Origin: Jimgerdemannia flammicorona
Lineage: Eukaryota
DNA: 39,591 bases
Assembly (NCBI GenBank): GCA_003990765.1
Contig: RBNJ01000138.1
Location: 1-39,591 of the forward strand
Direction of reading: 5' to 3'
A program made the position numbers and the translations under genes. Positions 204 to 33,347 of the stretch are shown here, in pieces. Every line of letters begins with the position of its first letter. The first letter of the stretch is position 1. The notes below the pieces were generated by a model. That model had not been told where the DNA came from, made no database searches, and worked only from the letters and a program-made list of their open reading frames with translations.

Positions 204-477
204 TTGAAAGTAATTCTGATATCATTCACTACTGGAGAATTTCCTCTAAGAAATCTTCTTAAATATCTATGTCTTGTTTCCCACCAGTGGTATAGGGAGA
301 ATAGGCTTGCTTTCAGTTTTACTATTTTTTCTAGAGAGTTAGTATTCTTTTGTCTTAATTGCTGAGTTCTTGATTTTGTTCATGATAATTATAATGTTCA
401 GGAGGGTAATATATAGTATGTACTGATAGGTGCTGGGTATTCAGTTTTAGTTGTTCAAGGAATCATATTCCTAAACT

Positions 478-620
478 AAGTCAGTGATATTCTGGAGATT
501 GGTCTTAGGTTCCCAGGTTGCATCATAGATTGGGTAACCTTTCTATTTGACAAGGTACTCAGGATGATTCTTATGGCTACATTTGTTGAAGATTTGTTCA
601 ACTTCATATTCTTCTTGGTC
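478..620 (-). pseudogene. Chromodomain at integrase C-terminus
   Basis: Manual translation DQEEYEVEQIFNKCSHKNHPEYLVK*KGYPIYDATWEPKTNLQN matches the chromodomain pattern Y.VE.I...YLVKWKGY....TWEP..NL. Confidence 0.9.
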
Positions 621-1760: not shown

Positions 1761-1949
1761 GAAATATATAATCTGTCCTTATAGTAGATAGTATTATCCT
1801 TCAGTTGATATTGATGGTACTGGGTATGCTTATTAGCATCATCACTACTTAGAATTTCTTGGAGTACTTGAGCTTTCTTATTATCAGCATATGCTATGAT
1901 AATTTGTTCCATAATAGAGTTTGTAACCAAGGTGAGAGTTTAGATAACT

Positions 1950-3200: not shown

Positions 3201-3479
3201 TGTGGTCTACTACTTGTTTAGAAGATAGGCCTTTCAGGAGTTTCTTCAGGAATATATCTCAGAATTTCTAGAATAGGGGTCTAACATGGCTGTTAACTTT
3301 GGAAAAGTCTTCTTCAGAGTTCTTGAGTTCTCCTTTGGATGGGCAGATGGAGATGGCAAAGAGAGGGCATTTCTTAGCTAATTTCTTAAGCTATAGCTTA
3401 TTGATATGAGTGATCTTTGGTCCAGAGTCACTAGAGCTAAGTGGGTCCTTTTCACTTTGCAGTTTGAAGTTATGACATT

Positions 3480-3830
3480 CTTTCTTAATGGTCAGAGAAT
3501 GGTTTACCCAATTGATCATGGAGTTCTCTTGTTTCAACTATAAGGTTCTAAGGATAATTTCATTATCAGAAAGTAGTATGATTTAGAGAGTAATATATAC
3601 ATAGTAGTCACCAATTTGGAAGGATAGGTTGCAGACTTTCTTACTAATGACATAAGAGATTCTATCAGCTGTGGCAACTACTTGAGTCTGTTGTATCAGA
3701 GATATCAGAACCTTGAGTCTGTTGGCTATTTCTTTATTAATAAAGTTACCTAAGACACTACTGTCTATTATAATTTTGACAGGTGCTCAGTTGATAAAAG
3801 CTTGAAGTATAAGTAGTTTGTCTGATCCAA
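3480..3830 (-). pseudogene. Retrotransposon aspartic protease (decayed)
   Basis: Manual translation PVKIIIDSSVLGNFINKEIAN (decayed DSGA..NFI), located upstream of RT. Confidence 0.8.
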
Positions 3831-4029
3831 TAGCAGTAATTTTGGTTATAGGAGCTTTCCTTCTGTTGGTTCTTCTTTGAGCCAGTTCATTGACACAAGA
3901 GAAGCAATTGTCAATTATTCAGGAAGAGTATATTCCAATACCATGGGGGTATCAGCCACTTGGTATATATCTGTCTTTGATTTTCTTATAAAATTATTCT
4001 TCTTTATTCATGGTAGATTGAGCTGGGGC

Positions 4030-4445
4030 CTTGTTTGATGAGCCAAATCCTTTGGATCCTTGGATGGTGGGTAGTAGTTCAGAGACTTCCTTGACTGTCA
4101 GAGTTGATTCAATTTTCTCAAATAAGATCTGCATGATGCAGAAACCAATAGAGATCTTGAAGGGTGTCCAACTATGGTTTCAGATGAGAACAATAATTTC
4201 ACCTATATAATCTTTGTTAATGACTCCTCCTTCTACTGAGAGTCCTTTCAATGCTAGACTACTGTAACAGCATATTCTTCCAACATGTCCTTCAGGGATT
4301 TGAATACTGATTTCTGTATAGACTTGCTTGACTTCTTGGTTGGAAACTGTAGCTTTTTCAGCTACATATAGGTCATATTCAGCTGCTTTTTGACTTCCTT
4401 TGGTTGAGACCTTGGCAGTTTGTCTTAACTTGACAAAGTCCAGTA
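4030..4445 (-). pseudogene. dUTPase inside the retrotransposon polyprotein
   Basis: DFVKLRQTAKVSTKGSQKAAEYDLY...IQIPEGHVGRICCYSSLALKGLSVEGGVINKDYIGEIIVLI*NHS..PFKISIGFCIMQILFEKI...TIQGSKGFGSS: all five dUTPase motifs recognisable in decayed form. Confidence 0.9.
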
Positions 4446-5510
4446 TTCTAGTAGTTAGGTTATTGAGGTGGTACAGAGTAGTAACAGTTGCTCATAATGC
4501 TGTTTGGGATTTTCAGTTGAGGTAGATACTAGCTATGTGTTCTGTCTTTTGACAATAGAAGTATGCTCCACTTCTTTGAAGTTTATTCCTTTCTCCTTCA
4601 GTAAGTTTCTTGAAGGTACTCAGCTAGGTAGATTTATGATTTCTGGGTGACTATGAGGTGGGTATTGAGAGAGCTCAGGATGCTTTATGCTTAAGTTCTT
4701 CTTTCTTGGTCCAAGTCTTTTTCTTGTTGTTGAATTGTCTTCGAGGCAGAATTGGTTCAGCTATTAGAATTTGCTTAACTATAGTCTTGATTTTTACCAG
4801 GCATCATTGTTGATAATCACAATCAACTGAGTATTCTTGTTCTCAGATTTTTCTTGTAAGCCAGTTAGGTAGTACATTGAATAGATGGTCTGCTCTTGTA
4901 CCATTTTGTACTTCATCATTGGCAATATATCCTAGACCAACAGTATTCAGAAGTAACTCAAGTTTTATACAGAAGGTTTTGAATTCTTTCTTATTATATA
5001 TATTAAATTTGAGATTGCAGAGTTTTACTTGAGATTTGGTAATCATGGTTTTGCTGTGATATTGAGCAATCATAAGTTGTTTCAGTCCAGGGACTGCAGA
5101 ATAGGCTCTATATCCTGGGGCATTGTTTGCTGCATTCTGAGTAATTACTACAGGTTGGGTATCACATATGAGAGGTTTTTCAGAAAGAGTTCACCACTAT
5201 TCTTCAGCAGATCCTTGGAAGAATGTAACAACTTAACAGATATAGGCTGTTGTAGTAGCAAAGAGTTGTTCCAGAGTGTGGTCTTAATTGTTTGTCAGGA
5301 GGCAGTCAGCAACTTACTCATTGGTCTATTGATTGGCTTCAAAGTTAGTGTCAACTATACTAATAAAGCTTTGGACTTCTTGTGCAGTACCATTGAAGGT
5401 AGGTAGGCTCAGATTTTTAGTAAATTGGGTCTATTCAGCTAAGGCAGTAATGGTTGCTGTCATTATTACTACCTGGGCTATAAGGTCTAGAATCTGTTAG
5501 TTTGCCATAT
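4446..5510 (-). pseudogene. gag with degenerate CCHC zinc knuckle
   Basis: Knuckle GAYFYCQKTEHIASIY near 4520-4570 (decayed CX2CX4HX4C). N-terminal LPTFNGTAQEVQSFI near 5400 resembles a retrotransposon gag start. The coding-like region may extend upstream to ~6530. Confidence 0.65.
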
Positions 5511-6729
5511 TGTTTACTGGAGGTAGTTAGACTGCTGGTAGTGGTATTACTAGTACTACTTGAGGTATTGGTACAGAATGTAAGAGTATTCTTTGAGTCT
5601 ATATAAGTTACTAGAGTAGTAGTTGTAGATCTGAAGTGAGGGCTTGATAAATAGCTATTTGTTGCTATATAGGTGTGTTCTGTCCTGATGGAGGTGTGTC
5701 TTCTTTGGTGGTATATTTAGGATTAAATTCACTAAGATACTCCTCCTTCTCTTCAGCTTGGTCTCCATGTAGGTGGGTTTGCTTAGCATCGAAGTAGATA
5801 GAGTCAGTTGTATATCTGATTTCAGATAGACTTAATTCAAAGTCAAGTTCTGGTTCAGTATTGATTTCAGATTTAGATAGAGCTATAGTAGAGCCTGCTT
5901 CTAGTTTGGGGTCAGGTTGTTGGTGAAGGGTTTCTCTTGCTTCTTCCTTAAGAATATGGTGGGCCTTGCTGTTCTGGAATCAGTAGTATAATGTGGTCTT
6001 AGTCCTGGTGCAGTAAAAGTCAGTAGAGTTGAGCCACTTAGCTATGGAGGCTTGGGCTTCATGAGGAACTAAGGCTAGAAAGACTACTGCTGGTTATTCT
6101 AGATTGCTCAGATTTATAGAGCTGATAAAACTCTTATTGAGAAGAGTAAAGAAGGCTTCTATAAGATCTTCTTTATCTTAGTTTGCTGGGTGTAGTGCAA
6201 GGAGTTTGATATATAGAATTTCACCTATCTGCTAATTTAACTAGAGTACTTCTTTTCTTAAATGAAGTTTGTCCCATTTGTTGTAGGTGTAGAGGTCAAA
6301 TTGTCCTTATACATCAGGTTCAATTTTCTCCAGATTGTCAGATAGTTCAGGATAAATTCCAGTTCAGAGATTGGGCTTTATACCAACTTGTAGAAATTCT
6401 CAGAGGGGTTGGTAGTGGAGTGAGAAAGTATCTTGAAGTAGAATTGGATTGTAAACTACTGCTACTAAGTTGTAAGAGGGTTACTTGTTAAGATAACTAT
6501 TATGTAGTTCTGGAAGGGTTTTCTGGAAGTTCTGGATATTCTAGAAGACTGTTTTCTTAAGGTCAAGATCAATTTCATATAGAGTATATCCTCTACACTT
6601 ATTGATTTCAAGATTGGATTAATGTCTCAACTAAAGTCCTTTTTCAGATTAGTTCTAGATGTTCAGGATTTTTCATATTTCAGAAAGTTCAAGAAACTAA
6701 GATCAGCTTAGTTGAATTGGCATATCACT

Positions 6730-7200
6730 ACAGACAATATCTAATTAGGAAATTTCATGATAGGGTTAGGAGTGAGACTTAATAGAGAGCAGATTTACTT
6801 AAGAGTGATTTGTAGATTATTAAATAGGTTTAATCACTATTTATGATATTACTATACTAGAAGTAGTTATGTGAAGGAATATTGTGGAGAAGTATTTAGG
6901 AATATTCTTATATATTCAAGTCTTTTAAGTCTGAGATTCTGAGGTCTAGAGAAGGGAGTATTTATACTAGTGAGGGGCTATCTAGACTATACTGAATATA
7001 GATATAGTACTTTAGTACCTTGCTGAGTCAGAATGCAGTTATATAGTATAAGTATAATCTGACATATCAAGGGATCATCTGACTGCTGAGTCAGTTTACA
7101 GTCACATCATATAAGACTAATCTAACTATACTATAACTGCTAAGCTATCTATAGATTTAGATACTATCTGGATAGTCTTTGATAATATCACTATTGATGA
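6730..7200 (-). repeat. Putative 5' LTR of the Gypsy element
   Basis: Non-coding stretch upstream of gag with a minus-strand TATAAATA box (~6959-6966) and two TGCTGAGTCAG copies (7021, 7084). No second LTR copy found in the window, so limits are unverified. Confidence 0.4.
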
Positions 7201-7229
7201 TATCATCTCTGATGAAATAGTTATCTAAG

Positions 7230-9428
7230 AAGAGTTGTTTGTAGATTAATTCTTCTTATTCACTGAGGTAATAATATATTGAGACTTTGTCACTATCCTA
7301 TAGGATAGCATCATCTGTCTCATATGCTAAGTAAGGTATTGGTGGGTAAAGGAGGGGTATATTATCTTCACTTTTATCAGATTTGCTGTCTGTATACCTC
7401 TTATAAGTTATGGCACTATGAGTTGCTAGGTTGTAGTAAGCTGGTAGCTGTAGTTCATGTTGCTTGTACTCAGGTAGCAGAGTTGTTAGTTCAATCTTGA
7501 GAGTTATCTGGAGATATAGATTGTGTTCTCTAGTTTCTTCATTATAGTTGAAGTAATCAGAGGTGAATGTAGATTAGTACTCATACCAGTGGTCATTGTC
7601 TCAATAAGTCTTATAGGTAGTTATGAACTATTGTAAGTTCATCAGCAAGGTTGGTAGAGTGATCAGGATTGGTAGGGATCCTTGGCTAGAGGTTATGTCA
7701 GTGTCAGAGAGATCATTGTCTTTGGCTTCATCTTCATCAAATCAGATTATATTATAGATATCCTTCATGGTATATCTAACTTGAAACATCTGCAGAATGT
7801 GGTCATTGGGGTGTGAGAAGGTTCTGTCTGTGGTCTGAACATACTCGAGATACTTGTGGTTGAGTTCTTGTATCATGTTGTCTATTTGGCTATAGGATAT
7901 AGTAGTGACCATTTCAGCAGTAGTAACTCAGAGACAGGAAATAACAGTACTATACTTATAGAAGAGTTCTCAATTTTTGCAGGCAATGAGTTTCTGGTGT
8001 TGAGACATCTGAATAATATCTATATCATAGTGGTGTTCAACTATGTCTTCTAAAAGACAGCCAATCTGGTAGTAGCTTGAGATTTGTCTGATTTGGTGAG
8101 CTTTGCTAAGTATGTTTAGGGTATTCCATCAGGCTTTCATGAAGTAGAGGGGTACTAAGCTATGGATATTTATAAGGAGTAGAGGGGGTGTGGTTCAGTT
8201 GATAATAGCATTCCAAATATCAGTGCAGATATGGTTGTAGATCTCAGTAGTCATGTTTGTGTATATTTAGAAGTTAGGGTTATTTGTTTGGTTTGTTTTG
8301 GTTCTTTGTTTCAATGTATCTCAGTGCTTAGTATATATGCATTTGGTTCTGATTGGTAAGATTCTGTTTGTGTGAATCTTATGTTCTATAACTTTGAGTT
8401 GACTCAGCTTTGTGTGCTATAACTTCAGTTTAACTCAGCTTTGTGATCTTGCAGGTGATTTCCAGATTTGTTCAGAGGTTATGTGTGATTTTGGTGACTT
8501 GTTTGGAGGGTGATATATGATTTCAGTATCTTAGAGGTTATATGCTTACATCTTCAGTAGTCTCTCCAATCTCTGTGAGGCTCACCTTATATGACTTCTT
8601 CTCTAGACCCCCCTCTCTCTCTCAACCTTACCTCAGAACTGCTGAGCATTAGATTTCAAATATTGCCAATAATCCCCAATCTCTAACCCCTGTGCCCTCT
8701 AGCTAATAATCCTAGTACTAATATCTACTATCCATTTATCCTATAAGATATAATCTCTCAGTAATAAAGTATTCATATATCAATATCTAGGTCTCTCTCC
8801 ACTTCTCCCAAATCTTCCACAGTCTAGCTAACCCCAGTGGTCAGACCAAGGGCACTAGACTATCTCAATCATATTCTAGATATTTACTTCATACTCAACA
8901 GTTAATACCTAGTCAATCCTTGATCCCAGCCTTATTATCTAGCTGATGATCTCTCTACTCAAGTCATCCTGTATTTACCAGTGAGCTCAATCTCTCAATC
9001 TTCTCCCAGTCTTCCATTCCTCCACTCCTACCCATCATCCTCTTCTCTCTATCTATCCTGTCCAGCAATCTATTATATATTATATTAAAGTTACTCCTCA
9101 GACAGTCAATCTTCTCAGCTACTATAATATCTACATCTCTTAGTCCTCTTATCCACTCCACATACTCCCCCTTTCTACTGGATAATAATATGACCTAACA
9201 GTCAAGGGACTCCAGTCCAGCCTCCTCCATACTCCCCACACCACTCTGCCCCTCTAATGTCCAATGTCCCCAATATCTCTCTTACTCTTCTTAACTGAAA
9301 TATCTATCTGATCCTACTATACAATTATACCTTCCTATTCTCTTATTCAATCTTATATATCTAAGCCAGTATCATAGTCTATATCCTACAATAAGAACAG
9401 ATCCACATCCAGCCTCTTCAACTAGCTG
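7230..9428 (-). mobile_element. Further heavily decayed repeat/TE-derived DNA
   Basis: CpG nearly absent, strong strand skew that flips near 8570, decayed minus-strand coding-like frame from ATG ~8255, ~31-bp tandem duplication at 8386-8445. Abuts and truncates the CRN gene. Confidence 0.5.
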
Positions 9429-11997
9429 AAGAATCATGCGATAAACTCCATCAAACTGGAGATCCATCACATATGCTCTTCCTAAGAAACCTAATAATAC
9501 ATCTGTTGTCAGCAGTAATAATATCATTCATTTGTCAATAGAGTTTTGAAAAGATCCAAACTACTTACCAACTATATGCAGACCACAGATGACAAGATTC
9601 AGTACACCATCTTCGGTTGACTTATCTATAGCATTTTTCATTACTTTACCAAGACTGACTAGATCCTGTTTAACCAATCTGATCTTTGCATTGAGTGGTT
9701 TTACCTTACCGACTAGCAGTTCAATATGCTTTTGGTCATGTGCTGTCCTGATAATAAAATCTGGCTTCATACCTCAGAGGGCTGGATCAAATCTCTTTTT
9801 CATCATTGATGATGATGTAGATGTGCTATTCGCCCTTTTGAATTAATAGAACAGTATTTATATCCCATTAGTACTATTATATAATATGGAGAATATTCTA
9901 TACCTACCATTCAAATATAGTTCTCCTGTTCTTAAAGAATGGTCCCAATACCGGAGCAATAATGGAGTGAATATGAGTGTCTTCGATATTATGGCTTTGT
10001 GTAAATGATGGCCGCTCATTGTTGACCCTTATATATCATGAGCAGTTTGAGAAAATAATATATTGTTTTTAAGCAAATATCATTATATATCTTGGTATAC
10101 ATATAGGTTTTGAATGATCTCTCTCATCAATTTACTGTTGTTTGTAGTTTGCAAGCTTTGAAGGTAGTTGTGTATAGCAGCCTTTTGCCTAGGATAATTT
10201 GGATTCTTACATGCAATCTAACAAATCATTATTAAACTAGAACAGGTATATATATGCTAAGGATAGATATGTTATATACATCCACCTTGATGGTATTGGC
10301 AAACATCTGAATGATATCATCTGAGATAAATATATATGGGTACATTTTTCGAAATTCAATGAACAAAGTACCCCAGAGCTCATCATCAAAATATCCATCT
10401 AGATCATATGGATTCTCTTCTTGGAAAACAAATACATGGCTTAAGACTCTGTAAAGACATTAAGTAGCTGTATTATTAAATATTCGTCATAATCTGATAT
10501 TGTAAAACAATAATACAGATAACACACAGTTCTTCAAGAGCTGTCAAGTAAGCCTGTATAGTCTCACACTTCTTGATGATTGCCATTCAATATTCACGGC
10601 ATTTACTAGAGATGTCATTTTTTCCTATCATCCACTGATTCAAAAGATAGATGACAATATAAACATATATGCTGGCATATTATAACATATGGTGCAAAAT
10701 AATATTCATTTACCCGAGAGAGATAATCATCCAGGTTCCATTCAATAATTCCAGGACCAATGAAATAGTCCATACAACTATCATTGCTTGCCTTGGAGAC
10801 AGTTGCATCACTATAAGGTGAAGAGAGGATGTAGGATGAATCGGTCACTACTGTATTTGGGCTGTCTGGAATCATATAGTCGACTCTTAATGGTCTTTTT
10901 CTTAGCACTATGGCTGGAGAATCTTTCTAATAGATATATACAGCTATTAATATCTAGACCTCTTTTTATAAATCTGAATAGTAATAAACTTACATTATCT
11001 TGTCTAGGAATGACTGGATAGTCAGATATATCATCGTACTCTTGATAGTGAATACCTGATATTTTGGAGGAAAAAGATATAACACCATTTGTTAAATGGG
11101 CTATTGGCTGGAAGGACCAATACAGCTATGAATAGGCACATCTTTTATTTACTACCCAGCCATCATCAAATCTGCCCCATTTTTACTTATGCCCTAGCAT
11201 AGCTTTACATGCCACCATCACACCAACAACCAATAATTATTTATGCAAATCCACCTCTTTATATGTCATATGTAGTGAATTGATTTTGCTATGAGAAATG
11301 AGCAGAGCTCTTCTACCTGTATCTTCAGCACCCCTTGAACATTTTGATGGCGATGATATAGCTGATATCATATGACCTATTTGAACCAAATATAATAAAT
11401 TCATATATATTTATAATACCTATGAGATAATTACATATTTTCAAATATACATACTTGGAGTTGGTATTGTTTCTCGTAGTACTCGCTTTGACATATATGG
11501 TCTGATGGATGGGGGTGGTGGGATATCGAGGTCTGAATGCCAAATAAACATCTGTTAGATAGGTATATATCGAAATAAACAAATATTACAGCAAATAACA
11601 TACACTGAAATAGTGGTGGTGTGACATCTGGCAGAGCTCGTTTGCTGGCATGAGGGCATTCAACAATGATATGGATGTGTCCATCATCAAGAGGTTCAGA
11701 AAAATACTTCTGGACCTTATGGGCTACTGGCAGATTAACTCCTTTTAACACAGTATCAATAGTAGCCATTGGATCAGCTTTGAGTGCGGTCAATAGAACA
11801 TTGGGGTTATCAAGTGGAATGTCAACCATCCATAGTTCGAGGTTTTTGGCTGTAATATGATCAAGTTCCGGTGAACATTTTTCTTTGATGAGGTCCTTCA
11901 GTGTACCGAAACTTTTAGTCTTCCTAATCTCCATAGGAAAGTTTTGGTGTAATGGGCTGGAATCACCGTAGATAAGATAGTTGAGAGTGATGGACAT
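9429..11997 (-). pseudogene. Crinkler (CRN) effector-like gene with C-terminal PD-(D/E)xK (REase-like) domain, multi-exon, 3' truncated
   Basis: N-terminus MSITLNYLIYGD...LKDLIKEK...LELWMVDIP...HIHIIVECP (CRN LxLxxx and HVLVxxP motifs). Downstream exons give KPDFIIR...ELLVGKVK and VMDLQFDGVYRMIL; GT-AG introns. Confidence 0.8.
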
Positions 11998-15333: not shown

Positions 15334-16383
15334 TTATTCTTTGACTATGGTTGCAAGTGACTTATCAACCTCTTCAAAGAATTCCTTAATCAGTCTAGCT
15401 ATCCTCTGTCGAAAGCCTAATTGTGGCTTCACTGTAATAAAATGAATATCTACAAGCTTGTATGGCATAATCCCTACATGTCTATAACTGCCCAAACTAT
15501 GCCATAGAGGATACCGTATAGTTGTACCATCCCAAAGACTAATGCTGGCCAGAGATGTAGTATAGGTCCTTTCTCTCTCACTTATCACAGCCAATACAAA
15601 ATCTATAGACTTATTTTCTACAGCACCAAAGTCTACCAAGGGGCTATTGTGTTGGTCAGCCTTCTTAAAAACATTCAGTATTCCCCATGCTCTAGGCCAT
15701 GCTGTCTGTATTGCTGCACTATTGTGATTGTGAAATGATGTATTGTACCCAGATATATTATCAAGATTGTCCACCTTACACAGCCGGAAAACTGCATCAA
15801 TAAAGATACATTGCTGCATAAGCCCTTCAGTAGCAACCAGTCCACCCCATATCTGTGGCTCGTACTTTCGGGGGACTGCACCATCTGGTTCACGTGTTAT
15901 AGGGCACTTGATCTCAAAGAGATTACATTCAGCAGAGACTCTAGCCTGTCGGCCATTTTGCATAGCTGTTGTCCACAAAGCATCATTGGCAGTATGCCAC
16001 ACCACGCCAATGTCATTGGGCAAGTATCTGAAATGATCCACATCTGGAATTTTCACTATGCAGATCTCACGACAGTATATCCAGCACCCCAGTCATAGCT
16101 CAGCAAATGCAATGGCGACTGACTCGAATGCTGTCCCAAATCCACAGGCTGCACTACTGAATGGCTTGCCCCAACCAAGCAGTCTTTCCACAAAGTTCTC
16201 TATGAATTTGATGGGAGTACAGTATCGGTTGTTCAAACCCCACATAGTTCCAAGGTCTGAACCACCGACGGTGGTATTTAGAAGCTTATACCATCTTGGA
16301 TTGTGCTGTTTGATGGCACTGTGTTGGTGCTGAAACTCTTCGACCGATCTCACCAGCTCTTTTATATCTGTGATGGCTGACAT
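15334..16383 (-). pseudogene. YqaJ/lambda-type exonuclease, Asfarviridae D345L-like (349 codons, one internal stop)
   Basis: ORFs 16093-16383 and 15334-16056 are in the same frame, joined across TGA at 16095-16093. Motifs Q...RW....TTVGGSDL, AACGFGTAFE, YLPND (decayed SPDG), EIKCP..R...VP..Y.PQI..GL, AVFRLC, PRAWGI, VDFG. Intronless. Confidence 0.88.
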
Positions 16384-16522: not shown

Positions 16523-18459
16523 TTAATTCATTATAGCATGAGCTGTGCATGTAATATGATAATGGTGATCAGCGATAGATTCAAACAATGCACTGTGCTC
16601 AACTTCAGACAAATGTATCCAATCATCTGCCAAGACCCCCAGCAATATAACAGCAGCCTTTCTAAACACCTTCATATTTGTATTATAGTGCCCATCATCA
16701 ATGCAAACATGAAGCACATATTGAAGTGATAGACTAGAACATGCAATACCACAGTTATTGCATAACCACTGTCCAGCATATTTTGTGAGCTGTCTATTGT
16801 ACAAGCTGCATGTGTTATATATGATCTTCCCTTGTTTGATAATAGTGATATAGCCCACAATGGCACTGTAGTAGGGCTCATCCAGTGGAATCTCAGTATC
16901 CAGAAGAGTTCGCAGTGATGAGATTGCCATAACTCTCCGATAATCAGTCTTGTCATGACTCTGTGTAGTCCACCACTGCTGCAGAGCATTACTCTCAGCA
17001 TTGTCGAGATTCTGCCCAACACAGCTGATATCAGTGCATGTCAGGGTATACTGAGCATGGAATACCTTTGGCAGCACATTACTGATCACCAGGACATCAC
17101 CTGTTGCAACTGTCAGGTCAATGGCATGCTGTCCCCAAAATGTAACTGAAACAATATAACCATCTCTGCCAACTACCTCAAGTGAACGTTGACTTGTAGT
17201 ACTACCTCCAACATCTGTAGTGACCAGCTCACCACCATCTACCACCATACAAAGAATGTCAATAGATGTCTTTTTGCAAATATCTTCCAATGGTGTAAAG
17301 GAATACACCATCTCCAGATAGTCATCAGACTCACATGTCATTATGATTGCAGTATCTCTCATATCCAGGAATCGGGTTGGCACACACTGTAGCCTGGCAC
17401 CAGTGATGTAGCAACTGCACCCCGGTACCAGATCTCTGAATACTGCATCACTATTCTTTCCACTGACATGTATTTTAATAATATCCTATCGTTATAGAGA
17501 TAGTTAGGAAGCTATTCAAATGTTCAGCTCAATGCTATCTGCTAGATACTCACCCCACTCTGGTCATGGACTGTTAGACTGAACTTCTCATTCACAATAC
17601 CAGTTTGGCTTATAACTAGCACATGAACTGTAATACCAGATGTATGTGGCATTAGCTCACTGATAGAGGTGATTTTGGAGAATGGCACCACCTTCTGGCG
17701 CTTGACCTTTATTGCTGTATTCTCCTCTAGAGACCGCTTCGGAGACCTGGGAGCTTCACCCATTGCAATTTTGTCGAATTCTCGAATCACAAGGTAGCTA
17801 TTATACATATATACATACAAATTCCAATTATGCTCATATATAATACAATTACAAAAGGCCAAATACCAATAGGATACATATATAGATTTATGCTTAGTCC
17901 CATACTCATATTCACTGATGCGAATAATTGCGAATTCCTCTATATCGATAGAATTCATAGATATTGCTACATGTAATAATCTCACATTAGCCACAAAATG
18001 TCACTGCAATCTTTATCTACAAAGATGGACATACATACCCAGTATAGTCTGGTCGCTATCAGAGACAATGCATACTGTTTTGGCAAGGACTGGAACCTGG
18101 TCCCCATAGCTCAATATATCATCTACTGGAACCTGCTCAACCTTAAGTACCTGCAGAATAATATCGTCAGAAAGAGTGAAATGCCCCTTTCCAACACCTG
18201 CAACAAATCCTTTAGTTAGAGCAGTTGGGAGTATAGAAGAGATATTTGTGAGAGGTGGAGTCTCAGCACTGATAATAGGAGGTGCTGGCTCATCTTGAAC
18301 AAAGACCAGCTTGTTAATTCTCTCGGCTGGAGTTCGGATCACAGTGAATTCAAGAATTAAACAGAAACTACAGATTATCATGAAATAACGGAATATTGTT
18401 AATTCTAGTGTCGAAAATGCCAGAATAGTGTAAATGGCATACATACACATGGTCATCAA
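16523..18459 (-). CDS. RPA1: RPA1/RFA1-like ssDNA-binding protein, copy B (multi-exon; start uncertain, possibly pseudogene)
   Basis: RPA70N-like LTKGFVA...IILQVLKV...IVSD; DBD-A ITSISELMPH...FSLTVHDQSG; DBD-B IDILCMVVD...RSLEVVGRDGYIVSVTFWG...NAESNALQQWW; DBD-C IYNTCSLYNRQL...WLCNNC...YVLHVCIDD...KVFRKAAVILLG. Confidence 0.85.
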
Positions 18460-18878: not shown

Positions 18879-19180
18879 TTGTATTAGTATAGTTAATAGT
18901 ATATAAGAGCAAATGCACTTTTTGCTCAAAACCCTACTAAGTGACTTCGATATTTTTGCCCAGCCAATGAGCTGTCATTTAGCGTATCCTTTTTATTGAA
19001 AGGGATATGCTAAATGTGATTTCATTGGTCCAAAAAATATCAGGTGTCACCAATGAGCTATCATCTGGCATAATGCTAAATGTGGTTTCATTGGCCGGAC
19101 AAAATATTCGAAGTCACTTAGGAGGTTTTTGAGCAAAAAGTATGTTTGCTCCTATATACTATTAACTATACTAATAACAA
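18879..19180. repeat. ~300-bp nested inverted repeat (~92-bp arms)
   Basis: Arm 18879-18970 (TTGTATTAGTATAGTTAATAGTATATAAGAGCAAA...AAGTGACTTCGA...CCAATGA) pairs with 19088-19180 with few mismatches. Inner hairpin CATTTAGCGTATCCTTT / AAAGGGATATGCTAAATG. Sub-repeats CCAATGAGCTrTCAT and TGCTAAATGTGrTTTCATTGG each occur twice. Confidence 0.92.
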
Positions 19181-19299: not shown

Positions 19300-20957
19300 A
19301 TGCCTGATGATTATAACCCTGATGATTTTAAAATCTCTTGCATTCCAGCTGCAACCATAGGCAAGCTTGACCGATTTTTACTAGAGCAAAGATATGGCAA
19401 CAATCTGAGTATGGAGCAGAATAATGTATTATATGCTGTAGTAGACAATGGTCAGAATGTGTTCTGTACAGGCTCTGCAGATAAATATAGTTCTTGTCTG
19501 AGTTTGTTTGCAATCATAGTATACAAAGCTGATATATCCTTTATCAGGGACAGGGAAAACATGGCTACTCCTGCGAATGATTGCCCTTCTCTGCAAGAAG
19601 CATGGCAAAGAGAAAGTTGCTATAACTGCAACAACTGGTATCGCAGCCTCGCATATCAATGGTCAAATGATTCACAGCTTTGCAGGGATTAGCAATGGTG
19701 CAAAAAGTATAGGAGAGCTTACATCCAATATTATGAAAAATGCTACAGTGCAAGATTGATGGAAGACTGCTGTAGTGCTTATTATTGATGAGATATCAAT
19801 GTTGAGTTGTGAGCTATTTGAAAAGCTCGAGAAAATTGTGTGAAATGTTCATGGAGGAGATGTACCATAGGGTGGTCTCAAAATTATCATTATGGGTAAT
19901 TTCTATCAACTCCCCCCTGTTGTGGTTGAACAAGACACCAGAGGAATATATACTTTCCAGGCTACATCATGGACAGCATCCATTCACCTGACATTTGTTC
20001 TCAAAGAGGTGTACAGACAAAAGGATCCTGGTATGTATATATTTTCATTGGCCGTTCTAGTATTTCTTGAGTCTCTTTTATTAATGACTATCTTCATAGG
20101 CTTTATCCAGATATTAAATGAATTGCATGTTGGCCAAGTGACCAAAAAAACAGGGGATATAATGAGGTCTTTGAAACATCTGCTAGCCCTTCCTGACCAA
20201 AGGATCATTCCAGTATCACTGTAGGCATTTCGTTTCTTATGGTCCTCCTTTTGAATCCATCTGGGATTTGGACCCTTTCCTTAATGGAACTTGCTTTTGT
20301 CTAGCTTCCCAACCCATAAGAAGATGCAAGAAGCAAATTGTCATCAGCTCCAAAAGTTGACGGGCGAAGCCCATCGCTATTTTGCAATTGACAGTGGAGA
20401 TATGACAATGGTTGGGAAGCTGTGTTTGTTTCCTCAGACCTTAGACATAAAGGTGGGTGCACAGGTGATCTTGCTGAAAAACATGACAGAAAAACTGGTA
20501 AATGGCAGTGCAGGAATCATCAAGAGTTTTGTCAAGGACCAGGGTGAGAGCATATCATATCCTAGCATACATTTTGATAATAGAATGATACAAACAATCT
20601 GGCCAGAAGCATGGGAAAATGAAGACAGACGTATGTAGAATTTGCCTTTCGTCATTTGGTTTATTTTACAACTCTCTGACTGATAACCTACTCTCAAACA
20701 CATTAGATGGACTAATCCTGGCCAGGCATATGCAGCTGCCACTAGATCTGGCATGGGCATTGTCAATACACAAATCACAGGGAATGACCATTGAATATGT
20801 TGTAATTGATTGTACGCAGATATTTGCAGCCAGGCAGTTGTATGTGGGTGTATCTCATGCAAAGTCTCCCAATGAGTTGCAGATACTGAACTTCAGTTGT
20901 GTGAAATATATTGTGGATACTGCTGTCACAGCCTTCTATGAAGGTCTAAACAGCTGA
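19300..20957 (+). pseudogene. PIF1: PIF1-family 5'-3' DNA helicase (4 introns, premature stops)
   Basis: NVFCTGSA|GTGKT (Walker A split by intron 19481-19547, donor mutated GT>AT), TATTGIAASHINGQMIHSFAGI, LIIDEISML, GNFYQLPPV, LKEVYRQKD, KVGAQVILLKN..LVNGS, QLPLDLAWALSIHKSQGMTI, QLYVGVSH; stops at 19757, 19841, 19868. Confidence 0.95.
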
Positions 20958-20963
20958 TGTGGT

Positions 20964-22469
20964 TTATTTATCAGCTTTAAAGTATACCTCATAAATTCTT
21001 GCACTTATCCCCGCCATAACCTTTGGTCCCATTGCACTGTATATCATCATCTGTTGTTTGTCATCACTATTTAAAATGCTATATGCTGCAAACAGATTGC
21101 TGAGTGTATGGTAATATGCAGCTATCTTCTGTGCCTTGGCAAATGAAACTCCATGTACAGTTGCGAGCATTGCTGTAAAGACATGCTGAAGTGTGGCAGC
21201 ATTGGACTTATTGTTCAGTGTGCAATATGCCTGATAGATAATGAAGTATGGTGTTGTGAGATGTTTCTGGAGTGTAAGATATGTGGCTTGGTCGATGTAT
21301 TTGTCTGAGATGCCATCCAGTTGCTGGGTTTCCATTTTCTTCAGCTCATTGTGCAGTGTGGTAAGATAGGTAATAGTGTGATCAGTGCTGGATGTACACT
21401 TGACGAAGAAGCCATCTCTGGTCTGTATGGTGGAGATTGCCGATGTGATTGCCTGTGGATTGAATGCATCGACCACCACAGAATCATATTCCTCAATGAT
21501 ATACACAACCCGGTCTGCACCAGAGCACCTCAGCTGTGCCTTCTGCTCTGCAAAGCATCCATCCTTCATACTGGCCACCAGATCATCCATGTGCTTCCAT
21601 TCAATGATCCAGTTCAGCACCAGTTCCATCTTGTCACTATGCCGACGTGCGATCCACACAATGTCTCCAAGCTCCAGTGCATGCACCTCCACCTTGACAT
21701 GATGTTTCTGCAATTGTGTATAGATATAGTTGTGGTTGGCAATGGACCTGATCTTGTGGGAATCGAGGATGAGCACCATATCAAATGTGCCAGGGTAGAA
21801 TATAGTGGGTGTGATGGACGGGAATGATGGCCTGCCTTCCTCTCCTACTACCTCTGTCTTTTCCGCTGCTTGGGGCTGTCTGGTCAGGTGCTGTACCAGC
21901 AGTGCTCCAGCATCTGTCAGAAAATACTTGGCTGGATTGCTGTTTTTGATAACCAATCCTTTTGTCACCAGACTACTCAGTCCTGACAATGCAGCTCTAT
22001 CACAGTATAGCTGTGCAAGGGTTTCGAGCTCCTTCTTGGCAATGTGGACATCAGCAGCATGCAGAGCCACAAGAATAGCATATGGACTACTGCGTAGCCT
22101 GGGAGTGTAGGAATGGGGTATGCTACTAGCAGCAGGTAAAATGGAGGTACATTTGTTGTGATCCAAGAGCCATTTAGTCAGCTTGCTGACTATCTGTAGA
22201 CCAATACCATTCAGATGGCATGTATCTTGTAGTGATGTGAAGGGAGAGGGATGGTGTAGAATGACATTGTGGACCTGTAGAGCTTGAAGAATATCAGTAT
22301 TAAAGATTATGTTTAAAATATTACATTTTGCAGTATGTATATTGACCTTTTGATATAAATAGTATGCCTTAGATCCAGTGGCCTGTGCTTTGTGTATGTG
22401 CTCTGCAAGACATGCCAGATAGAGTGGGTTTGCACAGGACACATGGGTTGATTTTGGTATTGGTGGCAT
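20964..22469 (-). CDS. MUS81: MUS81 crossover-junction endonuclease (catalytic motif decayed; likely non-functional)
   Basis: CANPLY...HhH LNGIG; winged helix YTPRLRSSPYAILVAL; ERCC4 LILDSHK, LELGDIVW, IIEWKHMDDLVASMKDGCFAEQKAQL (ERK..DL..S..DGRF.EQK.RL with Arg>Trp/His/Cys/Gln); C-terminal HhH GVSFAKAQKI. In-frame 72-nt intron at 22275-22346. Confidence 0.95.
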   Translation of the reverse strand: MPPIPKSTHVSCANPLYLACLAEHIHKAQATGSKAYYLYQKVNIHTAKCNILNIIFNTDILQALQVHNVILHHPSPFTSLQDTCHLNGIGLQIVSKLTKWLLDHNKCTSILPAASSIPHSYTPRLRSSPYAILVALHAADVHIAKKELETLAQLYCDRAALSGLSSLVTKGLVIKNSNPAKYFLTDAGALLVQHLTRQPQAAEKTEVVGEEGRPSFPSITPTIFYPGTFDMVLILDSHKIRSIANHNYIYTQLQKHHVKVEVHALELGDIVWIARRHSDKMELVLNWIIEWKHMDDLVASMKDGCFAEQKAQLRCSGADRVVYIIEEYDSVVVDAFNPQAITSAISTIQTRDGFFVKCTSSTDHTITYLTTLHNELKKMETQQLDGISDKYIDQATYLTLQKHLTTPYFIIYQAYCTLNNKSNAATLQHVFTAMLATVHGVSFAKAQKIAAYYHTLSNLFAAYSILNSDDKQQMMIYSAMGPKVMAGISARIYEVYFKADK

Positions 22470-23148: not shown

Positions 23149-23559
23149 CTATTTATTTATATATGGCATCTCACCACAGATGCGGCGGGCAAGAACCATA
23201 TCCTTTGGTACAAGTGTAACACGTTTGGCATGAATTGTAGCCAGGTAAGAATCTTCAAAAAGCTCGATAATATATGTCTCCGCTGCCTCCTGCAATGCAC
23301 CGAGAGCTGGTTTCTGGACACGAAACTCCATCCTGGCATCCTCTAGTATCTCACGGACCAAGCGCATAAAGGGAGCCTTTCTTATGAGCAGTTCTGTAGA
23401 TCTTTGGTATTTTTGGATCTCCTGAAGGGCCACTGTCCCAGGACGATAACGATGGGGCTTCTTGATTCCACCTCCTATAGGGACCGTTTTGCATGGAGCT
23501 GAGACTGTTTTGCGAGGTATCTTCATATGCTTCTGGGGGTTGGGTTGCTTTTGATGCAT
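23149..23559 (-). CDS. Divergent histone H3 variant, intronless
   Basis: [39 protein letters not shown]...[40 protein letters not shown]; first ATG at 23559; rewritten N-terminal tail. Confidence 0.95.
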
Positions 23560-26161: not shown

Positions 26162-27402
26162 ATGACTCCCATCTCAAAACTCATACTCCTGTTTACATAT
26201 ATGCTTGCTGTAGTCAGCTATGTCAGCAAGAGTATGTCAACCATATCTATGGAGGATAAATACAAGCACGCATTAAGTATGTGGTTTGAAAATAGCATTG
26301 TTTAGATTCAGCACCCACAAAACAGCACTCTTACATATACTGTAAATTACAGATACTCTTCGTCAATATGAGGAGTAGGGAGGCTGCTTCAAGCAGACCA
26401 TGGATGCCATGGGGCCTGATTGTGATATGGTTCTGACAGATGAGGATATTCGCAACAGATGTTAGTGTCTTGTGTTTGTTTCATTTTGCATAATGATGTA
26501 TACCTATATATTAATTATATATGGGAATCCTGTAGATGGTATTGCTCTGGTAGTATGCGATGCTACAACATTGAAGATGTCAATTCCCAGACAGTGCCTA
26601 GGCAAGGGTATCGATACTGATACCTATCTGAAGTACATGGGCAAAAATGCAGTATTGGCTCTAATGTTCGTACACCATAAAACAAACTCGCATTCTGTCT
26701 GCTGGTTCCATAGACAGATGGATCACAAGAAATATAAAAGCTGTATCGCAACATCTGCTCAGTGATCTGATAATATCAACAGATCAGCTGGCTGAAAAGC
26801 AACAAGATGTCATGGATGGACTAGAGGTTGCAAAAAAGGGGGTTGCTCAGCTAACAACTATAACTACCAGTGCATTGAGTGGCATAGGTGTGCAGGTAGA
26901 TGAGTATATCCACAAGGTAGATGATGCTCTCAATAAGACAATTGCAGCAGTTGCCAATGCCAGTGATATTACTGTTGCTCTTATTGAACAGCACTATGCG
27001 GCTTTCATTAAATCGGCAAGTGGATGGATTCCTGGATGGGCCACGGGGGCCATTGTAATACTTCAGACAATCACAGGCCTGAGCTTGGCAGCAGTAATGG
27101 TCCTGCTGGTAGTTGTAGCCATTGTAGCAGGTATCATCTGGAGCTTTGAACTAAACAGGTGCTGGAAGCTGAATGTTGTTGTAATTGGCCTAGTGGTTTA
27201 TTACTGTATGTATAATGTTCAGAGAATCCTGGTGTATCTGCAATGATAATATCACTGGCTGAGTATATTGCTCTACATCATCTTACTCTGTATATATATT
27301 GGGCTTTGTATTTCAACTCTGATGCTGGGCTATCATTCAATGCCAGCAAGCCAAAACAAATGTCAGTTCCCACCCAGGCCAGAGTATTATAATCGGGAAT
27401 AA
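26162..27402 (+). pseudogene. KAR5: KAR5/Tht1/GEX1/Brambleberry-like nuclear membrane fusion protein
   Basis: Signal-like MTPISKLILLFTYMLAVVSYVS; introns 26277-26352 and 26461-26535. Spliced Cys-rich domain LRQYEE*GGCFKQTMDAMGPDCDMVLTDEDIRNRYGIALVVCDATTLKMSIPRQCLGKGIDTDTYLKYMG...SVCWFHR. Frameshift ~26730, helical/coiled region, then three hydrophobic TM segments to TAA at 27400. Confidence 0.78.
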
Positions 27403-28651: not shown

Positions 28652-29735
28652 TTACACTACTACAAATTTTCTATTATATATTGTGTAAAATGGCATTGCA
28701 GGCAGTGTACAGGCCAGTTCATATGCAATATATATACAAGAGTATAGCACCCCATACTCTTGTTCTGCTATCAGTTTATCAAAATATGGTGGAAAAATCA
28801 CATTTGTAAGAAAGATTAAATTCTCCAACCCAAAGCATTGTCTGATCTCCTGATTATAACGAGCTCTTTCTGCCCCCCTGAGCGAGCATTGAAACTTTCT
28901 TACTACAACCAGTTGATCCAAAGCACCCTTAAGACCACCTGAAGGGAAAGATATATCAGCTGCTTTCAGGGCTGCTGGAACAGAGCCAAACAGCCTGCTA
29001 AGTATGTCTGGAGAGTACCTCTCCCTCAGAGTAGACATCTGGGCTTGGGAGGGATTGGCTACCACCTCTGCAACAGTAGTTCTGAAGTTCTCCACCAGAG
29101 CTAGCTCTTCTTCTGTGGGCTTGTGGATTAGTGGAGTTGGAGACCTGCTTCTATCAGTTTGTTGAGGTACTTGTTTTTTATTTTTCAAGATACCACGGTA
29201 GTGGCGGCGGGGAGGAGATGGCAGATTTCATAAAATACTAGGATATTACTGAAATGGTCAATATAATTAAGATCTAGTAAACAGAAGATTACCTTGTTGA
29301 AGTAAGCTTGTTTTGGTACAGATGGACCTTCACCACCATCCTCTTCATCCTCTTTACGAGAATGTTTTTGGGTGTATTGTATAGAGGCAGGTATTTCAGG
29401 CTCCTGTAGGTAGACAAAAGATGGTTAAGGGATGACAATTGGATATAACACAATAGTAATAAAAGTCTGTAACTTGCCAGATTCGTCTGTATAGAAACTA
29501 ATATGACTAGTTCCTTGAGCCAGGCATAGAATGTGGTATCCTTGTTCGAAAATAGCATATTGGATTCTAGACATCTTTTGATTGATTCTTCAAGATATTC
29601 ATCTGGGGTACAGAAATGCCCCTGAGCATTTCGCTGATATTTAGTAGATATGGGTAGAGGTATATGCAGAAATATGTATTTAGGTTTGTACAGAAGTATT
29701 GTTTTGGTTTTATATAGCTTTCCAGCCAGAGTCAC
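28652..29735 (-). CDS. Hypothetical protein(s), probably multi-exon
   Basis: 178-aa and 148-aa minus-strand ORFs separated by intron-like sequence; no family recognised. Confidence 0.4.
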
Positions 29736-30299
29736 ATGATGCCAAGCTACAAATCACATAGTGTTTACTACAGCATCACAAGTCACATTATTCTCTATTA
29801 TAGACACAATGATGCACACTCGACAGACTGCAAAACAGTTGAGCTCTGGGCCCAAAGAGGGTCAACTAAGCATACTGCCACCACTCTCTGGCCCTCCGAC
29901 CAGGTATATCTGCATGATGACAGATGGATTGTATATTATATGAATAGCAGCACTGTAAACTGGGTGAATGCCAAATATATGATAGTAGATCTAATACAAA
30001 CACTTGTTATAATTAGAATATGCTATATTGATATCCAGATGATTGAACTTGAATCCTTCGCAGAGTGGGAGTTCCTCAGGACTACAACTGTGTCTTCATT
30101 CGCAATATGTAGGGTACGTGTCTTGATGCTGCTATATTGCAGAGTATGTAAATATCTGATTAACCAATGTGATAATACCAATGCAGAACAGTCAAGTATT
30201 CTTCACAAAAAATTCAATTTCAAATGAAAACACCCTCAGTACAGAAGTAAACAGTATTGCTAAGAGGTAATCTGATTTTGTTCCTTGTGTTTAATATTT

Positions 30300-30963
30300 C
30301 GAATTATGACAACTATCTAATACAATGTTATTCCAATCATCAAGATGATGACCAGAGGCAAGCAAATGGCTTCTGATTCCTAACCACACTAATAATGATG
30401 GCACACTGTGTACTTATGATAGAGATGGACAGCCATGGGCCATCTTATTTGAGAATGTATGTCAAAATTATATTTGGGTATAATTAGTCATACTGTCAAC
30501 AAACATTATACTCATTGCCATATCTATAAGTTCATTAATATTGTAATTGGCAGCCAGCTGAAACACAGAGTCAATCTGGTCCTATTTATCAGTAGAACCT
30601 TGGTCGATTCTACTAAACCAGTAACAAGGAGAAGGCTGCAAAAGGAACTATTACATGTGATAAGTATACTACAGAGGTACAATATCCGTATATTACAATA
30701 TATCATATATGTGATCTTGGCTAGTACATATTTCATACTTCCTTATATTATTATCCAGACCAAACATTGGAAAAGTACTTCTCTTTGTCTGCTATAGTCA
30801 CAATCTGGATCACATCGCCAACAATGTCCTAGTAGCAATTAAGCAGCATGAAATGCATGATGTCCTGCTTGCAAATGCTATACACCAACAGGGTCTATTG
30901 TGTCCTGTCTGGGTACTAGAGGCCAGTGAGGCACCATATTCAATTCACCCACAAAGCATATAA
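30300..30963 (+). pseudogene. Hypothetical multi-exon gene
   Basis: Coding-like segments (NDGTLCTYDRDGQPWAILFEN / FINIVIGSQLKHRV... / PNIGKVLLFVCYSH...) bounded by GT and AG splice signals. Confidence 0.3.
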
Positions 30964-31140
30964 ATTTGATCGGTGCTGTACCGTGGCCTAATGTAGTATG
31001 CAATAAATCAGTGTAATCCTATTTCTAAAACTCAAAAAAAAATTTAAGTTGCCAAATAGTATTCTTTTGATATAGTAGCTAACTAGGATTGTACCAATAT
31101 TATAAATACCAGTCTGCACAGCATTAGATTGTTATTTAAA

Positions 31141-31995
31141 ATGCCATGGAATCTCTACAAAGGTGTACCATCATTTGCCTATGGCTGTTTGATTGCAGAA
31201 GAGCACTGTTTGGCATATGATAGTGATAGTGATAGTGATATAGGCACTACTGCTACCCTTGATACATCTCCGCAATATACTGATACTGAGCAAGAGGAAC
31301 AGTCACCAGTCAGCAATCATATACCAGTAATATCAGATTGGTATATATATATTATCGGTGTCATAGCACTCTGTGCTATTACTGCACTCTATGCAGGGAT
31401 GGTTGTGGATCATCCATCACAATATTCTGCATCTGGGGTTGCCGATAGAAGACATATAAGATTGAATGGGCACACCTCTAGTATAACAGAGTCGCCTAAC
31501 TTTGCACTCTATACAGGAGAAGCAAGTATTATCCATCAGTATATCTCGCCAACATACTTCCCACCACTGTATACTCTCCATCGGGCATTGAAAGGCGATA
31601 TCCATATTCACCCTCCCGAGATAGCCATTATGCCATCTATACATGTAGGCGAGTGCTGGCCAATGGCAGATAGCCAGGGACAGATTGCTATATCTCTGAT
31701 CCAGCCTATAACAGTGACTAGCATAGCTATTGAGCATGCCAGCCAATACAAAGCCATCATGCTCTCAAGTGCTCTGCGTGATATGGAGCTATAGAGCCAG
31801 CCTACAAATGCAAATTGTACAGCAAAGATATATGAATCAGTTTTTATTGAATCCTTCACTTACAATATACTGGGTGAACCGATCCAGAAAATTGTCATCC
31901 TGCCAATGGTGAATATAAAGGCTATTCTTCTATGAATCAATAGTAACTGGGGTCATGAACATTATACCTATATATACAAATTAAGTATATACTGA
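31141..31995 (+). pseudogene. SUN-domain (Sad1/UNC-84, Mps3-like) nuclear envelope protein
   Basis: Acidic N-terminus, one TM (WYIYIIGVIALCAITALYAGMVV), then PNFALYTGEASII..ISPTY..PPEIAI..VGECWPM..SQGQIAI..IEH..SSALRDMEL*..FTYNILG..INSNWGHEHYTYIYK; stops at 31792 and 31933. Confidence 0.92.
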
Positions 31996-32222: not shown

Positions 32223-33347
32223 ATGGCGACAAAAACACTCGTCCTTCCACCATTCAACCAGCCTCCAGAAATCATTATCCAGATTTTTCGCAATTTATCA
32301 TACAGTGATCTGGTATCCTGTGCCTGTATTTCTCCATGGCAAGCATTTGCCCTGCTACTACTTGGGGATAAAATCTATCTGAGATTGCACAGAGATCTCA
32401 ACCCACTTGGACAACTAGCAAGAACTGATTCAGCCTTCTTTCGATTCGGTACAGCAACTATCGTGAATCTCAGAATTCGTCTATATACACTCCTGCCCTA
32501 TACAAATCAGTATCTGCTTGAACATAGTTGCCCTAGTATATGTGACATTATTTCCAACCTCCCAGGCCTGGTAACACTCAGTCTCGATGACTATATACCT
32601 CCAGAGTTACCCAATATCTTGGGGAATACCATTCTCAGATGTAAATCACTTGCTAATCTTGAATGGGATGACATCTATAGCATTGATGGACTTGTACAAT
32701 TTATCACTCGAAATACTAGTATCAGGAGTGTTATTATTATGGGTCCTTTGACTGATATTAGGGTGTCTGGTTTAATTAAACTCACCCAGGTCACACACAT
32801 CAGAGAATTAAAAATATCACGTATGTATGCTTCGTTATTCTGAATTTTATAGGTTGGCTGTGACTATACCTAATCTATATATTTTACTACAGGATGGTTC
32901 AAAGATAGGAGGGACTTTTGCTCTCTCAAAGATACTGCAAATCGACGATTGGATGGCTTCCATCTGACAATCAATGATTTTCAAGAGAATGATGACTATT
33001 GGGCAGATTATCAGGAACCAGTATACTGTATATATGGCCATTCATGAGAGATGTGTGACTGTGGCATGTAAATTAGTTTATTGTCTTTAGTTTGGACTGA
33101 GGCTTCTCAGAATGTCACATGAGACTAGTTTTAAGAGCTGATCGCCAGTTTCAGTACTATGGTTAGGTTAGAATTCATTTGCATAAACAACGATGAGAGA
33201 ATTATGCCTGATAACAGATCTGAAACACATAATAATCATCTATCACTAATCTCTCTATCCTCTGCAAATGTTTATTGCTGTCAAATGATACAAATCCTCA
33301 TTGGCTTGAATAACTTATGGTCGAGCTGTACTACTCCCTTTGAGTAA
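32223..33347 (+). pseudogene. F-box / LRR-like protein
   Basis: PPEIIIQIFRNLSYSDLVSCACISPWQ (F-box) then LPGLVTLSL, CKSLANLEW, HIRELKI LRR-like units; intron from ~32822; downstream exons decayed. Confidence 0.7.

What the first reader, a model, noticed from the sequence alone, without database searches (positions are those of the whole stretch)
31141..31995. Compact intronless SUN protein 4 kb from the KAR5-like gene
A ~284-codon type II membrane protein with only a ~30-residue linker between TM and SUN domain, so no long coiled coil. Known: Mps3/Sad1 act in karyogamy, spindle-pole insertion and tethering of telomeres and persistent DNA breaks. Inference: a partner of the KAR5-like protein, a tether for element DNA at the inner nuclear membrane, or a dominant-negative LINC decoy.
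Basis: partly seen in the sequence, partly recalled or inferred. Interest (0 to 1): 0.75.

Follow-up and report, generated by a model that had tools for sequence, protein, structure and literature searches.

The report
Stalk-less SUN gene on mobile element
A dead copy of an unusually short nuclear-envelope (SUN) gene sits near a nuclear-fusion-like (KAR5-type) gene in a large repeated DNA element of a soil fungus, which hints that the element once carried its own tools for anchoring to nuclei, or for fusing them.

Summary
The SUN gene is real: 284 codons, one TM helix, a linker of about 31 residues, then a Sad1_UNC domain. This copy is a pseudogene with two in-frame stops; a sister copy (C26791) is open. 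It is not a lone retrocopy: four syntenic copies lie in a multi-copy element of about 50 kb, in a genome whose proteins are labelled Jimgerdemannia. The element also carries a KAR5-like gene, a UL9-like helicase, YqaJ, Rad52, RPA, PIF1, Mus81/Eme1 and histone H3. No capsid, PolB or integrase was found. The protein belongs to a supported clade (98/90) of short SUNs that keep the KASH-pocket residues but lack the stalk motif (0 of 13, against 103 of 138 other SUNs). One metagenomic relative lies head-to-head with a KASH-like gene. Best reading (0.4): an element-encoded inner-nuclear-membrane organiser that works with the KAR5-like protein at nuclear contact or fusion sites. Binding, expression and localisation are untested, and the host Sad1 gene was not found. 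The scan had not noted this SUN before; it had noted another KAR5-like relic and a sister island in this genome.

The parts
31141..31995 (+). Short TM+SUN gene, 284 codons, pseudogene (in-frame stops at 31792-31794 and 31933-31935)
31156..31170 (+). N-terminal [YF]x[GN][VI]P motif, specific to the short-SUN clade (inferred nucleoplasmic)
   Evidence: 9 of 13 clade proteins against 1 of 138 others
31336..31404 (+). Single transmembrane helix, residues 66-88
31405..31500 (+). Luminal linker of about 31 residues; no helix predicted (low confidence); stalk motif absent
31501..31992 (+). SUN (Sad1_UNC) domain with a clade-specific C-x4-C insert
26162..27402 (+). KAR5/GEX1-like gene (signal-peptide-like start, six-cysteine region, long helix, three C-terminal hydrophobic segments); spliced; broken here by frameshifts and stops; frame open from the second exon on in C29022
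9433..39591 (.). Part of a multi-copy element of about 50 kb that continues on C335, C1084 and C127; CpG o/e about 0.2-0.3
18882..19176 (.). Palindrome (102-nt arms, 84% complementary), one of three per unit, each between divergent genes; candidate origin or integration site
15334..16383 (-). YqaJ-like exonuclease (broken here, open in C30999)
   Evidence: E 8e-6
16523..18456 (-). RPA1-like gene
19300..20957 (+). PIF1-like helicase (pieces)
20964..22469 (-). Mus81
   Evidence: ERCC4 E 5e-25
23149..23559 (-). Histone H3-like gene
32223..32843 (+). F-box gene, downstream neighbour in all four SUN copies
36101..36505 (-). Eme1/Mus81 C-terminal domain gene

Best explanation
A decayed copy of a functional gene of a large mobile element. 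SHOWN: type II membrane layout, SUN fold, a distinct stalk-less clade, carriage with a KAR5-like gene and a recombination-replication kit. INFERRED mechanism: the protein sits in the inner nuclear membrane. Its short N-terminal tail (conserved [YF]xGVP motif) holds element chromatin or a spindle-pole factor. Its SUN head, held within a few nm of the membrane, binds a short KASH-type tail and gathers the element's KAR5-like protein, as Mps3 anchors Kar5 in yeast. This would give a narrow inner/outer membrane contact where neighbouring nuclei of the multinucleate hypha or zygote join. The element's Rad52/YqaJ/RPA/PIF1/Mus81/UL9-like kit would then copy it into the partner nucleus.
For: Four syntenic copies, one open. 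Clade support 98/90, so the short form is old, not a truncation of this copy. Pocket residues equivalent to SUN2 C601, Y707, C705, H628 and S641 are kept in 11, 11, 10, 9 and 8 (11 with Thr) of 11 aligned clade members (residue roles passages). The KAR5-like neighbour matches the published family layout, and Kar5 localisation needs Mps3 (passages). A clade member lies head-to-head, 166 bases apart, with a coiled-coil ORF ending in a TM and the tail YIPT, which fits a published KASH pattern; chance about 1.5e-4 for one given end.
Against: No KASH-like gene was found in this element: 9 of 2958 frames passed the filter, 8 of them frames of under 60 codons and the ninth the L055 ORF. SUN domains without the helical stalk are monomeric and do not recruit KASH (passage), and the stalk motif is absent from 13 of 13 clade proteins. 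KAR5 membership rests on layout and a sub-threshold Atlas lead (0.89, low recognition score). SUN and KAR5-like genes are 3.7 kb apart with other genes between them, and related elements share the stretch between them without showing either gene. Genomic context is known for only 1 of the 9 non-Jimgerdemannia clade proteins. The host Sad1 was not found. All dated changes among copies are neutral decay.
Confidence: 0.4

Rival explanations
1. Tether for element DNA: the protein holds the replicating or recombining element at the inner nuclear membrane, independently of the KAR5-like gene.
For: Conserved N-terminal motif. The cargo is dominated by break-repair and recombination genes. Mps3 tethering of persistent breaks is recalled, not checked here.
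Against: It does not explain the kept luminal pocket residues, the KASH-like neighbour in L055, or the KAR5-like gene.
Confidence: 0.2
2. Nuclear entry or exit factor of a nucleus-replicating DNA virus whose capsid and polymerase genes are lost or lie on unlinked contigs.
For: UL9-like helicase (E 1.8e-7), YqaJ and dUTPase, H3, palindromes and a circularly closing map. L055 is intronless and not CpG-depleted (o/e 1.16).
Against: No capsid or PolB family among 235 frames scanned against Pfam. 0 of 5 IMG/VR scans found a relative; three of these used exact patterns that find close relatives only. The map closes at about 50 kb without room for a virion module.
Confidence: 0.15
3. Dominant-negative decoy: a stalk-less SUN that occupies host KASH or SUN and loosens the host LINC or spindle-pole attachment.
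For: Pocket kept, stalk lost.
Against: Stalk-less SUN domains fail to recruit KASH. A relative seems to bring its own KASH-like partner, which a decoy would not need.
Confidence: 0.1
4. Passenger: an ordinary short SUN gene of some unsampled eukaryote (or of the host), captured once and never used by the element.
For: Changes among copies are neutral (window copy: 10 nonsynonymous to 4 synonymous, against 253 to 100 possible). The host gene was not found, and the origin of 8 clade proteins is unknown.
Against: The clade is deeply divergent (30-55% identity) yet conserved, and lies apart from the long Sad1-type clades in both trees. Neutral change is expected in silenced, integrated copies whatever the gene did before.
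Confidence: 0.15

Closest known systems
C-terminal SUN proteins: Sad1/Mps3/UNC-84/SUN1-2 (Pfam PF07738; PDB 4DXT, 4FI9, 6WMG)
   Same: N-terminal tail, one TM, C-terminal SUN domain; fold match E 1e-14, sequence match E 1e-20; pocket residues and internal disulfide kept in the open copy.
   Different: Linker 31 residues against about 130 (Sad1), 250 (Mps3) and 300 (SUN1/2) (passages); stalk motif and C-terminal YRxR[VI] lost; C-x4-C insert; multi-copy element cargo.
Sperm SUN3-5 (shortest described canonical SUNs)
   Same: Short luminal part; no cysteine at the KASH-disulfide site (passage; Thr here).
   Different: They still have 80-130-residue coiled coils and are chromosomal genes.
Kar5/Tht1/GEX1/Brambleberry with Mps3 (yeast karyogamy; PMC4291462)
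   Same: Signal peptide, six-cysteine region, coiled coil and C-terminal TMs in the neighbour; Kar5 anchoring depends on a SUN protein.
   Different: Here both genes ride on one mobile element; no Prm3-like gene was identified; no Tht1 HMM hit.
Giant endogenous viral element of Rhizophagus irregularis (PMC10640383) and Starships
   Same: Large decaying DNA element in a fungal genome; the Rhizophagus region also lacks a major capsid gene (passage).
   Different: About 50 kb; no captain recombinase or PolB found; 'SUN' does not occur in that paper's main text (supplements not read); Starships are described as limited to filamentous Dikarya (passage).

Membership tests
C-terminal SUN proteins | C-terminal Sad1_UNC domain above the family cut-off | tested here: met
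   86.7 bits against cut-off 22 for the open copy; 78.2 bits for the window copy across its stops
C-terminal SUN proteins | Single TM upstream of the SUN domain | tested here: met
C-terminal SUN proteins | KASH-pocket residues and internal disulfide | tested here: met
   All five kept in the open copy; the window copy has lost one cysteine
C-terminal SUN proteins | Luminal coiled coil or helical stalk before the SUN domain | tested here: not met
   31 residues; no helix in the model, pLDDT under 50 there; stalk motif in 0 of 13 against 103 of 138
C-terminal SUN proteins | Trimer that binds KASH; inner-nuclear-membrane location | not testable with these tools
KAR5/GEX1/Brambleberry (neighbour) | Signal peptide, six N-terminal cysteines, coiled coil, 2-3 C-terminal TMs | tested here: met
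   Read exon by exon by eye: 2 cysteines in one exon, 4 in the next; 110-residue helix in a low-confidence model; 3 hydrophobic runs (definition). Splicing is inferred.
KAR5/GEX1/Brambleberry (neighbour) | Sequence match to Pfam Tht1 | tested here: inconclusive
   No hit; the genome search rang nowhere, controls included; Atlas lead 0.89, cluster 48% Tht1
KASH proteins (L055 neighbour) | C-terminal TM, 9-40-residue tail, terminal [DTVAMPLIFY][VAPIL]PT | tested here: inconclusive
   Pattern met (YIPT); tail 8-11 residues depending on the TM end; the TM holds Lys and Glu; the pattern was derived from plants
Processed retrocopy of the host SUN gene | Near identity to a host gene; single insertion | tested here: not met
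   The DNA search covers the SUN gene only in element copies; long Sad1-types are 47% or less identical. The host gene itself was not found.
Endogenous DNA virus | Capsid or PolB hallmark genes | tested here: inconclusive
   None among 235 frames scanned, but frames are decayed and spliced and the assembly is fragmented
Starship/Crypton | Tyrosine recombinase at the element end | tested here: inconclusive
   No hit in the same scans; ends were mapped only roughly

The most novel reading that the evidence does not exclude
A family of capsid-less nuclear DNA elements of multinucleate fungi encodes its own nuclear-envelope kit (stalk-less SUN, KAR5-like fusion protein and, in some members, a KASH) with a full recombination-dependent replication set, and spreads between nuclei by forcing them to touch or fuse: a selfish element that drives karyogamy.
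Probability: 0.3. Interest if true: 0.92.

Novelty: new variant of a known kind. Interest (0 to 1): 0.7.

Why it matters
I found no report of SUN, KASH or KAR5 genes on a virus or mobile element (paper searches; term checks; open-access library only, supplements not read). If the module works, it is the nuclear counterpart of virus- and transposon-borne cell fusogens and offers a route for DNA exchange between nuclei in coenocytic mycorrhizal fungi. Independently of that, a natural SUN clade that keeps the KASH pocket without the stalk, and a two-gene SUN/KAR5 set, make two open questions testable: whether the stalk is needed for LINC assembly, and how SUN anchors Kar5 for inner-membrane fusion.

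Tried and rejected
Host Sad1/Mps3: four searches returned only element copies and the Slp1-type gene on C18080; these searches are weak for genes with many introns, so absence is not shown. IMG/VR scans with the SUN alignments, YqaJ, the helicase and the KAR5-like alignment: no relative in 5 of 5. Metagenome scan: 4 loci, 1 of the clade (L055); the other 3 (25-26% identity) were not examined. Names and origins of the closest short SUNs could not be looked up, so their context stays open. Sequencing runs: no RNA holder listed; the one soil DNA run gave three 151-base pieces, too little to use. The KAR5-like model had pLDDT 49.7, so no fold search was run. Tht1 and Herpes_ori_bp family searches of the genome were insensitive. 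The TM-rich frame just upstream of SUN (30459-30797) looks like intron plus exon of a soluble gene, judged by eye, not a KASH. A first stalk pattern with the wrong spacing was replaced. PMC6232973 held none of the salt-bridge terms, so the residue numbers of the stalk salt bridge are recalled, not cited.

Full report
Observation. Window 31141-31995 is one uninterrupted frame of 284 codons encoding an acidic N-terminal tail, a TM helix (residues 66-88), about 31 residues of linker and a SUN domain. It has two premature stops, at codons 218 and 265, so this copy is dead. The window is the whole of contig C138 of a 231-Mb genome; the closest proteins carry the label Jimgerdemannia flammicorona.

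Copies. The Pfam search of the genome gave 6 matches: four are this gene (C138, C26791, C16602, C1084) and two are exons of a Slp1-type mid-SUN gene. All four have the same upstream frame and downstream F-box gene. In register, C26791 is open, C16602 has one premature stop and C1084 three plus a 1-base gap. The window differs from the open copy at 46 of 855 sites, and its 15 private changes are all C>T or G>A, with a nonsynonymous-to-synonymous ratio (10:4) equal to the neutral expectation (253:100). The open copy may simply be less decayed. The host Sad1 gene was not found in four searches, so a direct host comparison is missing.

The element. From 9433 to the contig end the window is collinear with C127, C1084, C335 and many short contigs at 80-96% identity. 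By overlaps the map closes on itself at about 50 kb: C335 continues the window's right end, and its far end abuts window 9433 in both C127 and C34242. A 300-base palindrome occurs three times per unit, each between divergent genes. On C2478 the element stops inside one of them, with CpG o/e jumping from 0.08 to 0.85; on C127 it starts within about 150 bases of the same palindrome; C335 and C30351 read through it. That fits a circular or tandem intermediate (inference). Pfam identifies YqaJ, two RPA-like genes, PIF1, Mus81, Eme1-C, dUTPase, H3, ankyrin, F-box, dsRBD, NIF phosphatase, RCC1, Crinkler-N, Rad52 and a Herpes_ori_bp (UL9-like) helicase; the helicase's nearest Atlas cluster (0.98) is mostly eukaryotic, commonest Mucoromycota. 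Ulp1-like, RING-like, PHD-like and primase-like segments were recognised by eye only. No capsid, PolB or integrase family appeared among 235 frames scanned; one search took 101 of the 198 frames listed, and included flanking frames. Several cargo genes appear spliced, so lack of introns is a property of this gene, not of the element.

The protein family. Searching 1.84 billion representatives with the open copy ranked short TM+SUN proteins first. In a quick tree of 150 SUN domains (2 fragments and 4 other rows left out), 13 proteins of 193-391 residues formed one side of a branch (SH-aLRT 99); a careful tree of 11 of them with 35 of the 137 others gave 98/90. Branches are long and the sample was chosen by similarity to the query, so attraction is not excluded, but shared characters agree: an N-terminal [YF]x[GN][VI]P motif (9 of 13 against 1 of 138) and a C-x4-C insert (9 of 13 against 0 of 138). 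The clade lacks the motif that ends the stalk helix (0 of 13 against 103 of 138) and the C-terminal Y[RQK]xR[VI] (1 of 13 against 110 of 138); that these two form the stalk salt bridge is recalled. It keeps the KASH-pocket residues listed in PMC6527376 (passages; counts), except the Y703 site, which varies. The model of the open copy (mean pLDDT 57.6) folds as SUN and shows no helix in the linker, at low confidence. PMC3585024 (passages) gives 80-130 residues for the shortest canonical SUNs and states that stalk-less SUN domains are monomeric and do not recruit KASH; this counts against a conventional LINC role unless the TM or a partner trimerises the protein.

Partners. The gene at 26162-27402 has a signal-peptide-like start, six cysteines across an inferred intron, a long helix and three hydrophobic segments, the layout given for Kar5/GEX1 in PMC4291462, which also shows that Kar5 needs Mps3 to gather at the spindle pole (passages). 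It has no Tht1 hit, one homologue at 43% and a sub-threshold Atlas lead, so it is KAR5-like, not a proven member. It shares a contig with SUN in the window and C1084. No KASH-like tail was found in the element. The one clade member with known context, P0013 on a 3.2-kb metagenomic contig, lies head-to-head with a 494-codon coiled-coil ORF ending in a TM and GNPLYIPT, which fits the pattern in PMC4050730 (passages). One locus, binding untested, and whether that contig is an element is unknown.

Mechanism and verdict. The best reading is an element-encoded inner-membrane organiser that brings the KAR5-like protein and a short KASH-type tail to a narrow membrane contact, letting the element pass between nuclei (0.4). 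Rivals are a DNA tether (0.2), a viral entry or exit factor (0.15), a passenger (0.15) and a decoy (0.1). Anatomy, clade and carriage are shown; every functional step is inferred. Paper searches (listings and abstract starts) and term checks in four papers (main text only, supplements could bear on this) found no virus- or element-borne SUN, KASH or KAR5. Two unchecked notes of this scan describe another KAR5-like relic and a 29-kb sister island in the same genome; I did not test them. Verdict: a real pseudogene of a new SUN variant, in a context that may be a new kind of system; interest 0.7.

Noticed in passing
L055:36-1520 (-): Coiled-coil ORF with a C-terminal TM and KASH-like tail, head-to-head with a short SUN gene; contig not CpG-depleted.
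   Followed up: partly
L059:2-2623 and L060 (G000:C22957, C27147; C335:20000-24400): Large UL9-like helicase gene, possibly with a primase-like N-terminus (by eye), next to a Rad52 gene; candidate replicase of the element.
   Followed up: partly
window 18882-19176; C335:17407-17618 and 30721-31005; C2478:6470-6635: Palindrome three times per unit between divergent genes; marks an element/host boundary on C2478. Origin, promoter or integration site.
   Followed up: partly
L014, L016, L017, L022-L024 (C8625, C1343, C9738, C7158, C10417): A second repeat family shares part of window 28686-30834 but carries kinase and ankyrin genes instead: module shuffling.
   Followed up: no
window 36912-37880 (-): Unassigned gene with an N-terminal hydrophobic segment and long helical region, a third membrane-protein candidate; a RING-like gene lies upstream (by eye).
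   Followed up: no
window 9433-11997 (-): Crinkler-N gene region with many diverged copies (about 70%) elsewhere in the genome.
   Followed up: no
window 1-9432: Retrotransposon DNA with CpG o/e near 0, much more depleted than the element; retrotransposon DNA also lies at the matching breakpoint on C335.
   Followed up: no
window 31141-31995 against its copies: C>T changes fall mostly on CpA in number (19 of 35) and on CpG in rate (8 of 34 sites), a RIP-like or methylation-driven pattern.
   Followed up: partly
L004 (G000:C18080): Ordinary host Slp1/SUCO-type mid-SUN gene, spliced; not related to this finding.
   Followed up: no
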